The notes below the pieces were generated by a model that worked only from the letters and a program-made list of their open reading frames with translations, did not search any database and was not told where the DNA came from. A program made the position numbers and the translations under genes. From Candidatus Woesearchaeota archaeon (GTDB lineage: Archaea > Nanobdellota > Nanobdellia > SCGC-AAA011-G17 > PNOQ01): 46,943 nucleotides of DNA. The DNA is taken from positions 1-46,943 of the forward strand of contig JABJPM010000031.1 in the NCBI GenBank assembly GCA_018663865.1. The letters are read 5' to 3'. Below are positions 19,987 to 21,556 of the stretch, in pieces (the first letter of the stretch is position 1; the number at the start of each line of letters is the position of its first letter).

Positions 19987-20979
19987 ATGAGGCCCATATT
20001 GAAAGATCGAAGGTTAATCTCTTTGGTTTTGATGATTGCATTATTTTCATTCCTATTTTATTCAAGTATCCCATTTCTAAATGCATTTTTCGGAGCATTA
20101 ATATTATTTGTTTTGTTCAAACCATTGAATAAAAAATTAAAAACCAAGTTAAATTTCTCAAAACATTTGGCAGCATGGTCCATTTTATTGATTTCTTCAT
20201 TAATTATAATTATTCCAATTTTTCTCCTAATTCAGGGACTAGTTTCCCAAATTTCAACATTGCCAGAAGTAATGGCCTCAATTGCAAAATTCGAAGATAT
20301 TGTTAATACATTTTCTTCATTAAATTTAGAAATAAAAACAGACACAATAATAAATCAAATAATTCCATTAATAGAAAAATCCGTTTCATCCATATTTGAA
20401 AATGCAATAATCTTGCTGACAAATATTGTATTATTCTATTTTTTACTGTACTACATGTTAATAAATGGGGATAATTTCATAAGTAAAGTAAAAAAATTAT
20501 TACCATTTAATAAAAAGAATAAACAGAGAATAATCGAGAAATTTGCAGACATGACCAAGGCAACAATAATTGGTTCATTGTTGATAGCAATTTTACAAGG
20601 TTTTTTATTATGGGCCGGATTCTATTTCTTGAATATCCCAGGGGCATTATTTTGGGGACTTGCGACCGCTTTAATATCTTTCATTCCAGTAGTTGGCTCT
20701 CCAGTAATTTGGGTTCCAGCAGCAATTATACTTTTATTTTCTGGAAGTCAGTGGCAGGCAATTTCATTGTTATTATGGGGAATAATAATCTCTAGCGTCG
20801 ATAATGTAATTCGTCCAATAACGAATAAGAAATTTGGAAAGATTCACCCATTGATATCAATAATTGGAGTTTTCATAGGAATTTATCAATTTGGAATTAT
20901 AGGAATTTTCATTGGACCATTATTAGTGGCTTATTTCGTATTAATTTGGGATATATACAAAGAAGAACATTTGGTTTGA
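19987..20979 (+). CDS. AI-2E family transporter
   Basis: FKPLNKKL, AILQG, SFIPVVGSPVIWVP, DNVIRP, HPLISIIGVFIG, GIFIGP. Confidence 0.92.
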   Translation: MRPILKDRRLISLVLMIALFSFLFYSSIPFLNAFFGALILFVLFKPLNKKLKTKLNFSKHLAAWSILLISSLIIIIPIFLLIQGLVSQISTLPEVMASIAKFEDIVNTFSSLNLEIKTDTIINQIIPLIEKSVSSIFENAIILLTNIVLFYFLLYYMLINGDNFISKVKKLLPFNKKNKQRIIEKFADMTKATIIGSLLIAILQGFLLWAGFYFLNIPGALFWGLATALISFIPVVGSPVIWVPAAIILLFSGSQWQAISLLLWGIIISSVDNVIRPITNKKFGKIHPLISIIGVFIGIYQFGIIGIFIGPLLVAYFVLIWDIYKEEHLV

Positions 20980-20985
20980 AAATAA

Positions 20986-21060
20986 CCCTGGGCTAATCCC
21001 TTTCGAAAAAGGCACGCGAAAGCGTCATTTAAGATCAGCCTGGGGAAAAAGAGGTGATAT
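20986..21060. ncRNA. Candidate structured ncRNA (three-way junction), unassigned
   Basis: GC-rich island between convergent genes; 13-bp outer stem plus two tetraloop hairpins; consensus promoter at 21082-21095 on the minus strand. Confidence 0.45.
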
Positions 21061-21081
21061 AAAAATAGTGGGCCCCGATCA

Positions 21082-21095
21082 TTTATAAAGCTTTC
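21082..21095 (-). promoter_or_regulatory. BRE-TATA (GAAAGCTTTATAAA) with no protein gene downstream
   Basis: Matches the motif upstream of rpoE' (22739-22752), S6e (about 31262-31277) and aIF5B (about 34276-34290). Confidence 0.55.
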
Positions 21096-21103
21096 GGTTG
21101 GTG

Positions 21104-21361
21104 CTACTCGCCAATAGTTACAATAAATGGGTGAGAGTCTGGAGATTTTATTCCAAAATATTCTTCTGGAGCATTACAAATTCTGATGTCTTTTCTAGCA
21201 TCATTTTCTTTAATGGACATATAAACTGCACCATCATATTCAAAACAAGATAACATGTTGGGGGGAAAATTCTCAAAATTATGCCTAACCTTGCATCTAA
21301 TCCAATTTTCAGGATGGTATAAAGCCATCTTTACTACATCCTCTAATTTTGGTGAATACAT
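21104..21361 (-). CDS. Hypothetical protein
   Basis: 85-aa ORF 9 nt after the rps27ae stop. Confidence 0.55.
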   Translation of the reverse strand: MYSPKLEDVVKMALYHPENWIRCKVRHNFENFPPNMLSCFEYDGAVYMSIKENDARKDIRICNAPEEYFGIKSPDSHPFIVTIGE

Positions 21362-21370
21362 AAAAAAGAA

Positions 21371-21556
21371 TTATTCTTTAGATTTGAATTCTACATAATG
21401 GCATTTGCCACAATAAAATCTATCTTTATGATCTCCAAGAAACATCCCTGGACCACATTTTGGACATGTTTTTTTAGAAGTAACTTTATCTCCTTCTATA
21501 CTATATTTTTCATACCTTTTACTAGGGATTTTATTCTTCGTCTGTTTTTTTGCCAT
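21371..21556 (-). CDS. rps27ae: 30S ribosomal protein S27ae
   Basis: CPKCGPGMFLGDHKDRFYCGKC. Confidence 0.97.
   Translation of the reverse strand: MAKKQTKNKIPSKRYEKYSIEGDKVTSKKTCPKCGPGMFLGDHKDRFYCGKCHYVEFKSKE

What the first reader, a model, noticed from the sequence alone, without database searches (positions are those of the whole stretch)
20986..21095. Orphan promoter and GC-rich three-way-junction RNA carrying a 16S-like anti-SD sequence
Seen, between convergent genes: P1 CCCTGGGCTAATC (20986-20998) / GATCAGCCTGGGG (21033-21045), 12 of 13 pairs with tandem GU; P2 CCTTT-CGAA-AAAGG (UUCG loop on the minus strand); P3 ACGC-GAAA-GCGT (GNRA on the plus strand); then GAGGTGAT (21051-21058). 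A promoter identical in form to those of translation genes points into it from the right (minus strand, 21095-21082). With the 20-22 nt spacing seen elsewhere, the transcript would begin near 21058-21060 with AUCACCUC, matching the 16S anti-SD tail. No plausible ORF follows. I do not recognise it as 5S, SRP, tRNA or a riboswitch. Inference: an undescribed sRNA, possibly an SD-masking regulator (minus strand) or ribosome decoy (plus strand).
Basis: partly seen in the sequence, partly recalled or inferred. Interest (0 to 1): 0.75.

Follow-up and report, generated by a model that had tools for sequence, protein, structure and literature searches.

The report
Conserved archaeal small RNA, anti-SD tail
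The flagged stretch is a real gene for an undescribed ~85-base small RNA found about once per genome across most Woesearchaeota/Pacearchaeota-type archaea; its almost unchanging free 5' end copies the ribosome's anti-Shine-Dalgarno sequence, so it most likely binds the ribosome-binding sites of messenger RNAs.

Summary
At 20975-21060 on the minus strand there is a consensus archaeal BRE/TATA promoter. It is followed by a 21-nt non-conserved spacer, then the RNA: a 15-nt unpaired tail AUAUCACCUCUUUUU, a covarying stem with a branched top, and a U-rich end.

No Rfam 15 family matches it. A covariance model built from relatives finds it in 213 of 240 genomes of the order. It also finds it in 332 of 401 high-quality genomes of the phylum, mostly as a single copy.

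The core AUCACCUCUUUUUCCC is almost invariant. The top of the hairpin is free to vary, from a plain 32-nt hairpin to the three-way junction seen here. The junction is therefore lineage-specific and not the defining feature.

The promoter orientation and the asymmetry in folding stability between the two strands both place the RNA on the minus strand.

The function is inferred, not shown. The tail can pair with A-rich SD sites (AAAAAGGAGGUGA) as strongly as the 16S tail does. In this genome those sites precede pilin-like and other surface-protein genes. I found no extended unique target and no rRNA target.

Genomes with almost no full-length SD sites still keep the RNA. A role in binding a protein or a ribosome factor therefore remains a serious rival.

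The parts
21102..21121 (-). Upstream promoter element GTAACTATTGGCGAGTAGCA. It is an imperfect palindrome of the type TGTnAC...GTnACA and lies directly upstream of the BRE. It overlaps the last codons of the 85-aa ORF.
   Evidence: It is conserved upstream of this RNA gene in most lineages, also where no ORF lies there. Similar motifs precede four other promoters in this genome. That it is a transcription-factor site is inferred.
21082..21097 (-). Archaeal promoter: BRE (CCGAAAGC) plus TATA box (TTTATAAA).
   Evidence: It matches the GAAAnnTTTAWAWA consensus found at 45 sites in this genome, mostly 21-24 nt before leaderless ATGs. It is conserved at the same distance in relatives.
21061..21081 (-). 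A 21-nt spacer between the TATA box and the transcript start. It is not conserved.
   Evidence: The alignments of relatives show no conservation here, in contrast to the flanks.
20975..21060 (-). The small RNA gene, about 82-86 nt. The start is predicted at 21060 (+/-2) and the end in the U-rich run 20985-20975.
   Evidence: Covariance model R1 scores it 86.3 bits, E about 1e-16. The extent follows from the conservation boundaries. The ends are inferred, not mapped.
21046..21060 (-). Single-stranded 5' tail AUAUCACCUCUUUUU. AUCACCUC (21058-21051) is identical to the 16S anti-SD core, and a U5 run follows.
   Evidence: It is unpaired in the MFE and centroid folds. It is almost invariant across the class. 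The 16S 3' end in this window reads GGAUCACCUCCU.
21033..21045 (-). 5' strand of the basal stem, CCCCAGGCUGAUC. It includes the conserved CCC and the C.A / A.C mismatch positions.
   Evidence: Pair counts are. CCC/GGG is invariant, C.A is present in 88 of 97 sequences, and the pairs above it covary.
20986..20998 (-). 3' strand of the basal stem, GAUUAGCCCAGGG.
20999..21032 (-). Variable apical part. Here it is a junction of two hairpins: ACGC-UUUC-GCGU (21025-21014) and CCUUU-UUCG-AAAGG (21012-20999), after the linker UUAAAUG.
   Evidence: Fold. This form is shared only with the closest relatives (L002-L008) and is replaced by plain or differently branched hairpins elsewhere.
20975..20985 (-). 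U-rich 3' tail UUAUUUUCAAA, the likely termination site.
   Evidence: Relatives carry GGGUUUAUAAUCA or a U-run at this place. Its role as a terminator is inferred.
21104..21361 (-). Upstream 85-aa ORF of unknown function. It lies between the S27ae gene and the RNA gene.
   Evidence: There is no Pfam hit. It was found in only 3 of 158 related loci, so it is not part of the conserved unit.
21371..21556 (-). Ribosomal protein S27ae gene. It is the last conserved gene of the rpoE'-spt4-S24e-S27ae cluster and the usual neighbour of the RNA gene.
   Evidence: Pfam PF01599, E=1e-16. S27ae lies within 1.5 kb of the RNA gene in 81 of 158 loci, in two arrangements.

Best explanation
SHOWN BY COMPARISON. 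This is an independently transcribed, non-coding small RNA gene on the minus strand. It is conserved, usually as a single copy, throughout the Woesearchaeota/Pacearchaeota-type class of DPANN archaea. The RNA has a free 5' tail, (N)UAUCACCUCUUUUU, followed by a stem that opens with CCC and a C.A mismatch. A freely variable hairpin top and a U-rich end follow.

INFERRED. The tail is the working part. It copies the 16S anti-Shine-Dalgarno sequence and extends it with U5. It can therefore pair in trans with A-rich Shine-Dalgarno sites (AAAAAGGAGGUGA / AAAAAGAGGUGAU) about as stably as the ribosome does. That pairing would mask those sites and lower or delay translation of the minority of SD-led mRNAs. 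In this genome those mRNAs encode type IV pilin-like proteins, a FlaJ/TadC-like platform protein and small surface or basic proteins. The hairpin would serve stability and termination. The U5 run beside the hairpin could also seat the Sm-like protein these genomes encode. A conserved palindromic element upstream of the BRE suggests that the RNA's own synthesis is regulated.
For: Promoter and start:
- The BRE/TATA box is identical in form to 45 other promoters in this genome.
- Conservation begins 21 nt after the TATA box, where leaderless ATGs lie in other genes.

Not a known family:
- There is no Rfam match at gathering score in the window.
- The only match at E<=10 in the 300 nt around the finding is sR35 (12 bits, E=1.1).
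- ARAGORN finds no tRNA here, and the 5S gene lies elsewhere.

Distribution:
- 213 of 240 genomes of the order carry it, and 100 of 107 high-quality ones.
- 332 of 401 genomes and 238 of 281 genera of the phylum carry it.
- Names in the public records: Woesearchaeota, Pacearchaeota, Nanoarchaeota.

Structure: the stem covaries.

Strand: the inner hairpin is more stable on the minus strand in 84 of 98 homologues, by 4.3 kcal/mol on average.

Tail: it is unpaired in every fold and almost invariant.

Pairing with ribosome-binding sites:
- Duplex energies of the tail with true SD-led start regions equal those of the 16S tail, for example -16.3 against -15.9 kcal/mol.
- The weak 'hits' of the model in genomes lacking the RNA are real ribosome-binding sites read backwards, such as AAAAAGAGGTGATAnnATG.
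- Genes with this extended site are repeatedly pilin-like, FlaJ/TadC-like, or small membrane or basic proteins.

Possible protein partner: an Sm-like protein gene is present in 24 of 26 relatives.

Precedent: M. mazei sRNA41 represses targets by masking ribosome-binding sites (PMC5867862, reviewing Buddeweg et al. 2017).
Against: - There is no expression, 5'-end or target data.
- Full-length SD sites are few per genome (0-40). One family (f50) has almost none and still keeps the RNA.
- Among extended sites, GGAGG (the 16S match) is as common as AGAGG (the perfect sRNA match). This gives no sign that the sites evolved to fit the sRNA.
- A seed of 6-8 nt would be enough for masking. That does not by itself explain the invariance of about 16-20 nt, including U5 and CCC.
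- No extended complementary target exists in this genome. The best site lies inside a coding region.
- Any RNA carrying AUCACCUC will score well against SD sites by construction.
Confidence: 0.5

Rival explanations
1. Protein or ribosome-factor ligand. The RNA mimics the 16S 3' end. Its invariant tail and the C.A-containing stem base would be recognised by a conserved protein: a 16S 3'-end maturation or binding factor such as Nob1 or Dim2/Pno1, an initiation factor, or the Sm-like protein as its main partner. The RNA would then titrate, deliver or regulate that factor rather than pair with mRNAs.
For: - About 16-20 nt are almost invariant across a whole class, including positions not needed for SD pairing: U5, CCC and the conserved C.A mismatch.
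- The RNA persists in genomes with hardly any full SD sites.
- It is linked to the S27ae / S24e / spt4 / rpoE' cluster in at least 51% of loci.
- A near-universal single copy suggests a housekeeping role.
- An Sm-like protein is present.
Against: - No partner has been identified.
- The order of the parts (tail, then hairpin) is the reverse of the 16S 3' end (helix 45, then tail).
- The 16S trailers of four relatives share nothing with the RNA beyond the anti-SD and AT-richness.
- About 17% of high-quality genomes lack a detectable copy.
Confidence: 0.22
2. A guide or scaffold RNA of another kind. It would be an Sm-class particle built like U7 snRNA: a 5' antisense element containing CUCUUU, a U-rich Sm site and a 3' hairpin. 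It would direct RNA processing or 3'-end formation at purine-rich sites, or play some other still unknown RNP role.
For: - The architecture (5' single strand, U5, hairpin, 47-90 nt) resembles Sm-class RNAs; this comparison rests on my own knowledge of U7.
- An Sm-like protein is encoded.
- Tandem, co-transcribed copies and copies with 25-40-nt leaders in some lineages imply that the RNA is processed.
Against: - This is pure analogy. No archaeal precedent is known.
- No conserved extended target was found in this genome or in rRNA operons. The rRNA duplexes are no better than those of shuffled tails.
Confidence: 0.12
3. The functional strand is the plus strand. Either it is an SD-carrying decoy RNA (hairpin followed by AAAAAGAGGUGAUA) that titrates 30S subunits, or it is the leader of a tiny ORF.
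For: - The plus strand reads as a perfect consensus ribosome-binding site.
- In one lineage an ATG follows 2 nt later.
- The two basal mismatches become G.U pairs on the plus strand.
Against: - No promoter lies at a fixed distance on that side, because the hairpin length varies from 32 to 65 nt.
- The conserved BRE-then-TATA order points the other way.
- The inner hairpin folds better on the minus strand in 84 of 98 cases.
- The 'ORFs' are 6-22 codons long, are not conserved, and are absent in the window.
Confidence: 0.04
4. It has no function as an RNA. It would be a bidirectional terminator hairpin between convergent genes, or a DNA-level element.
For: - It lies between convergent genes in the window, and the stop codon of the AI-2E transporter gene is 7 nt from the stem.
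- A U/T-rich run follows the hairpin on both strands.
Against: - The flanking genes differ among lineages, while the element, its promoter and its invariant single-stranded tail persist.
- A terminator does not need a dedicated BRE/TATA box or a 15-nt invariant leader.
- The difference in stability between strands points to selection at the RNA level.
Confidence: 0.03

Closest known systems
Methanosarcina mazei sRNA41, and the RBS-masking loop of sRNA154 (archaeal intergenic sRNAs)
   Same: Both are independently transcribed archaeal sRNAs. sRNA41's proposed mode of action is to repress translation by pairing with ribosome-binding sites within mRNAs (PMC5867862).
   Different: - sRNA41 is genus-specific and has a defined small regulon (the ACDS operons). 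It has been tested experimentally.
- This RNA is conserved across a whole class.
- Its seed is a literal copy of the 16S anti-SD plus U5.
- It has no experimental data and no sequence similarity to sRNA41.
C/U-rich SD-masking sRNAs of Firmicutes: RsaE/RoxS, the S. aureus RNAIII loops, Listeria LhrC
   Same: They have exposed pyrimidine-rich motifs that pair with SD sequences of several mRNAs. Some occur as sibling copies, as this RNA does in a few lineages. The comparison rests on my own knowledge.
   Different: - Those RNAs are bacterial. Their motifs (UCCC/CCCC) sit in loops, not in a 5' tail.
- None copies the full anti-SD.
- Rfam models of these families do not match here.
The 16S rRNA 3' tail (anti-Shine-Dalgarno)
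   Same: It shares 8 identical nucleotides, AUCACCUC. The predicted duplex stability with SD sites is the same.
   Different: - The RNA is a separate 50-90-nt transcript.
- It diverges from the 16S tail after CCUC (CUUUUU against CUAUUU).
- Its hairpin follows the tail, whereas in 16S the hairpin precedes it.
U7 snRNA / Sm-class small RNAs
   Same: They are similar in size and layout: a 5' antisense tract containing CUCUUU, a U-rich tract and a terminal hairpin. An Sm-like protein gene is present in these genomes.
   Different: - U7 is eukaryotic and belongs to the histone 3'-end machinery.
- Nothing here shows homology, Sm binding or a processing role.
Archaeal C/D box sRNA sR35 (RF01123), the only Rfam match at E<=10 in the 300 nt around the finding
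   Same: A CUGA and an AUGAU string occur at suitable distances in the window.
   Different: - The score is 12 bits against a gathering score of 60.
- The 'C box' lies in the non-conserved spacer upstream of the start.
- The 'D box' lies in a covarying stem and is lost in relatives.

Membership tests
Any Rfam 15 family | A score at or above the family's gathering threshold. | tested here: not met
   The window scan at gathering score finds only rRNA, RNase P and 2 tRNAs. A permissive scan of 20900-21200 at E<=10 finds only sR35, at 12.3 bits against a threshold of 60.
C/D box sRNA | Conserved C (RUGAUGA) and D (CUGA) boxes flanking guide regions. | tested here: not met
   The candidate boxes are not conserved in homologues. 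One lies upstream of the predicted start and the other in a covarying stem.
H/ACA sRNA | A hairpin with a pseudouridylation pocket and K-turn, and an ACA box just 3' of the stem. | tested here: not met
   Many homologues are plain, uninterrupted hairpins of 32 nt, and no ACA follows the stem.
tRNA / 5S rRNA / SRP RNA | A match to the family model. | tested here: not met
   ARAGORN finds no tRNA here. The genome's 5S gene is on another contig. No SRP match appears in the scans.
Trans-acting RBS-masking sRNA (a functional class, e.g. sRNA41) | Its own transcription unit, not a UTR. | tested here: inconclusive
   A conserved BRE/TATA box lies at the correct distance, and conservation starts at the predicted +1. 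No transcript data could be obtained.
Trans-acting RBS-masking sRNA (a functional class, e.g. sRNA41) | An accessible seed complementary to ribosome-binding sites. | tested here: met
   The tail is unpaired in all folds. Its duplex energies with SD-led start regions equal those of the 16S tail.
Trans-acting RBS-masking sRNA (a functional class, e.g. sRNA41) | Demonstrated repression of target translation. | not testable with these tools
   This needs reporter, toeprint or interactome experiments.
Intrinsic / bidirectional terminator | A hairpin plus U-run whose sequence is free and whose position is tied to gene ends only. | tested here: not met
   It has an invariant 15-20-nt single-stranded leader and a dedicated promoter. 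It is conserved independently of the neighbouring genes.
Sm-class RNA | A U-rich Sm site next to a hairpin, bound by an Sm/Lsm ring. | tested here: inconclusive
   An invariant U5 adjoins the stem, and an LSM-domain gene is present in 24 of 26 relatives. Binding cannot be tested here.

The most novel reading that the evidence does not exclude
The RNA is a previously unrecognised housekeeping RNA of Nanoarchaeia. It would be a free-standing copy of the ribosome's anti-SD tail that works with the translation apparatus itself. For example, it might act as a trans-acting partner or decoy in 30S maturation, in hibernation, or in the choice between SD-led and leaderless mRNAs. It would be bound by a conserved protein through the U5/CCC/C.A module. 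On this reading it is not an ordinary gene-specific regulator.
Probability: 0.15. Interest if true: 0.9.

Novelty: new variant of a known kind. Interest (0 to 1): 0.72.

Why it matters
New non-coding RNAs that are nearly universal within a major lineage are rare. They usually point to core biology.

This one is single-copy and linked to a ribosomal-protein/RNA-polymerase gene cluster. It is driven by a strong, apparently regulated promoter. Its conservation is at the level of rRNA in organisms (DPANN archaea) with minimal genomes and no genetic system.

If it masks SD sites, it would be the first lineage-wide archaeal riboregulator. It would also offer a handle on how these episymbionts control pilus and surface genes. 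If instead it binds ribosome factors, it would reveal a new component of archaeal translation.

In either case it gives a ready covariance model for annotation and a compact, testable object: a 47-90-nt RNA with a 16-nt invariant tail.

Tried and rejected
1. Known families. The Rfam gathering and permissive scans, ARAGORN, and inspection for C/D and H/ACA features gave no membership.

2. An extended unique mRNA target.
- Mismatch scans and RNAduplex over both strands of the whole genome found only the gene itself.
- The next best site is a 13-nt match inside the coding region of a large surface protein.

3. An rRNA or pre-rRNA target, or a role as a processing chaperone.
- The leaders and trailers of four relatives and two whole rRNA operons gave duplexes no better than shuffled tails. 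The null mean was -19.5 kcal/mol, against -19.6 and -17.3 observed.
- The 16S 3' ends are intact, so the RNA does not replace a missing anti-SD.

4. Coding on either strand. No conserved ORF exists, and the hairpin length is not held in frame.

5. A link between the number of full SD sites and presence of the RNA across 401 genomes. I saw none by inspecting the two genome tables; I did not compute a statistic. The SD-poor family f50 keeps the RNA.

6. A large RNA structure enclosing the promoter (inverted repeats around the TATA box). The downstream half is missing in several lineages, so this is more likely protein-binding DNA.

7. A downstream tRNA suggested by GGGCU strings. ARAGORN and Rfam found none; the strings belong to a second small hairpin element.

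9. Literature. Four full-text searches found no description of this RNA.

Full report
WHAT IS THERE

The window comes from a 594-kb archaeal assembly with 31% G+C. It carries an archaeal rRNA operon and RNase P RNA.

On the minus strand the region reads as follows:
- CCGAAAGC-TTTATAAA (BRE/TATA, 21097-21082).
- A 21-nt spacer.
- AUAUCACCUCUUUUU (21060-21046).
- A stem, CCCCAGGCUGAUC (21045-21033) pairing with GAUUAGCCCAGGG (20998-20986).
- Inside the stem, two small hairpins.
- UUAUUUUC at the end.

ViennaRNA returns this fold with the first 17 nt unpaired. The energy is -22.9 kcal/mol and the z-score about -2.4 to -2.7.

The element lies between the stop codon of an AI-2E transporter gene (plus strand) and an 85-aa ORF. 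That ORF ends the rpoE'-spt4-S24e-S27ae cluster on the minus strand.

IT IS NOT A KNOWN RNA

- Rfam 15 at gathering score finds only rRNA, RNase P and two tRNAs in the window.
- A permissive scan of 20900-21200 gives one match, the C/D sRNA sR35, at 12 bits against a gathering score of 60 (E=1.1).
- The putative boxes of that match are not conserved in relatives.
- ARAGORN finds no tRNA here, and the genome's 5S rRNA is on another contig.

IT IS CONSERVED, AND THE CONSERVATION DEFINES THE GENE

A BLAST search of 126 nt against 60 relatives found full-length matches in the genus and family. In more distant genomes it found matches to the promoter plus tail only.

When aligned, every homologue has the same plan:
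- A BRE/TATA box.
- A non-conserved spacer, usually 21-28 nt.
- Then (N)UAUCACCUCUUUUUCCCCAG.
- A stem of variable length and shape.
- C(Y)AGGG followed by a U-rich stretch, often UUUAUAAUCA.

In this genome, leaderless genes have their ATG 21-24 nt after the same TATA consensus. Conservation therefore begins where transcription should begin.

A covariance model built from 19 sequences scores the window copy at 86 bits. Its hits:
- 213 of 240 genomes of the order, and 100 of 107 high-quality ones.
- 332 of 401 high-quality genomes and 238 of 281 genera of the phylum, mostly one copy per genome.

An exact 20-mer scan of one genome per prokaryotic species returned MAGs labelled Woesearchaeota, Pacearchaeota or Nanoarchaeota.
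- Seven bins labelled 'Methanosarcinales' also carry the RNA. They are only 1.0-1.5 Mb and are probably mislabelled.
- Three other sites were chance matches of the 20-mer: one in an Atribacteria genome, one in a Pelotomaculum genome, and one at a second place in a Woesearchaeota genome whose true copy lies elsewhere. All three fail the model.

STRUCTURE AND STRAND

The stem covaries.
- In 97 distinct sequences, 81% of cells pair, against 66% in shuffles.
- 183 cells change on both sides, against 60 in shuffles. None of 500 shuffles reaches the observed values.
- Sliding the partner by one column halves the signal (the seed alignment gives the same picture).

The three CCC/GGG pairs are invariant. 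The next position is a conserved C.A mismatch (88 of 97 sequences). The one after it is A.C or A-U.

On the plus strand these two positions would be G.U pairs.

Above them the asymmetry reverses. With the five basal pairs removed, the hairpin is more stable on the minus strand in 84 of 98 homologues, by 4.3 kcal/mol on average.

Together with the BRE-then-TATA orientation, this places the RNA on the minus strand.

The three-way junction of the window is shared only with its nearest relatives. Other lineages have a plain 32-nt hairpin with a UUCG-type loop, or longer tops that often carry a second CUUUUUG motif in the loop. The junction is therefore not the defining feature.

CONTEXT

- S27ae lies within 1.5 kb in 81 of 158 distinct loci. 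It is either upstream on the same strand, as here, or downstream and convergent.
- Directly upstream of the BRE, most lineages keep an imperfect palindrome (TGTnAC...GTnACA). Here it is GTAACTATTGGCGAGTAGCA, 21121-21102. Four other promoters in this genome carry similar motifs. I read this as a transcription-factor site; that is an inference.
- Some lineages have tandem copies without a promoter between them, or a promoter 45-60 nt upstream with a G/U-rich leader. In those lineages the tail is not always at the primary 5' end, which implies processing.

FUNCTION: WHAT WAS TESTED

The tail shares AUCACCUC with the 16S 3' end, which reads GGAUCACCUCCU in this window.

Evidence that bears on SD masking:
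- In genomes that lack the RNA, the model's best weak hits are real ribosome-binding sites read backwards (AAAAAGAGGTGATAnnATG). The tail is thus the complement of an idealised A-rich SD site.
- In this genome the tail pairs with true SD-led start regions as strongly as the 16S tail does, for example -16.3 against -15.9 kcal/mol at AAAAAGGAGGUGA sites.
- The genes behind such sites, here and in relatives, are repeatedly type IV pilin-like proteins (class III signal peptides), a FlaJ/TadC-like membrane protein, and small membrane or very basic proteins. The FlaJ/TadC assignment is my own reading of the sequence, not a Pfam result.

Evidence against a simple 'global masker':
- Full SD sites are few per genome.
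- One family has almost none and still keeps the RNA.
- GGAGG is as frequent as AGAGG among extended sites.
- No unique extended target exists.
- Pairing with rRNA or pre-rRNA flanks is no better than for shuffled tails.

An Sm-like protein gene is present in 24 of 26 relatives. This fits U5 serving as an Sm site but does not test it.

VERDICT

That this is a real, widely conserved and so far undescribed small RNA gene on the minus strand is, in my judgement, close to certain.

That it works by masking SD sites is the best-supported mechanism, at about 0.5. It rests on sequence logic and on an archaeal precedent, sRNA41 (PMC5867862).

The depth of conservation, which includes U5, CCC and the C.A mismatch, keeps a role as a ligand for a protein or ribosome factor alive, at about 0.2. 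More exotic RNP roles remain possible.

Two earlier notes of this scan from other genomes describe the same family and reach the same reading. I treated them as leads. The distribution, strand and tail conservation reported here were established independently.

Four full-text searches found no published description.

Noticed in passing
window 21102-21121 (minus strand); also G000 C1:239-264, C16:~4950, C23:~32523, C30:~5443: An imperfect palindrome (GTAACTA...TAGTAGCA / TAGTTACA) lies directly upstream of the BRE of the sRNA gene and of four other promoters in this genome. One of those drives a transglutaminase-like surface protein gene. Variants such as TGTCATTTTTAAAGAGTAACA precede the sRNA gene in other lineages. 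It looks like the operator of a small regulon.
   Followed up: partly
L058, L069, L089, L104, L139, L159, L162 and others, about 20-30 nt downstream of the sRNA: A second small conserved hairpin element, GGGCUUAUUAAGA...UCUUGCCC, follows the sRNA in roughly 15-17 of the 158 related loci. It begins about 22 nt after the UUAUAAUCA that ends the sRNA, which may serve as its TATA box. It has no Rfam match and is not found in this genome.
   Followed up: partly
L055, L068, L100, L250, L259, L264: Some lineages carry two or three tandem copies of the sRNA with no promoter between them. Some also have a 25-40-nt G/U-rich leader (GGGGUUGGUUUGGAG). The later copies have slightly altered tails (UUCACCUC, ACACCUCUUUUCCC). 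This suggests a processed multi-copy transcript.
   Followed up: no
window 21104-21361 (minus strand): An 85-aa ORF lies between the S27ae gene and the sRNA gene. It has no Pfam match and was found in only 3 of 158 related loci. Its last codons overlap the conserved upstream promoter element.
   Followed up: partly
G000 C21:41645, C11:14960, C6:11763, C6:15688, C28:5451, C17:4819, C10:351: The few genes with long A-rich SD sites encode pilin-like proteins with class III signal peptides, a 714-aa FlaJ/TadC-like membrane protein, small Cys-rich secreted proteins, and a lysine-rich 61-aa protein. Most other genes look leaderless.
   Followed up: partly
L190/L192/L194 (relatives G144, G030, G025), upstream of the 16S gene: A tiny, very basic ORF (MKRSSRRWKKKGQMRWKWQRKR...) sits just upstream of the rRNA operon promoter in three of the four relatives examined. 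From my own knowledge it resembles ribosomal protein L41e.
   Followed up: no
L189, L191, L193 (16S-23S spacers of relatives): The spacer tRNA-Ala genes of three relatives appear to be interrupted by inserts: after the anticodon region in G058 and G030, and inside the T-arm in G144 and G030. They look like intron-containing tRNAs.
   Followed up: no
L068, L094, L108, L113, L120, L125, L127: Public bins titled 'uncultured Methanosarcinales archaeon' carry this sRNA and are only 1.0-1.5 Mb. Their taxonomic labels are probably wrong, and they are more likely DPANN genomes.
   Followed up: partly
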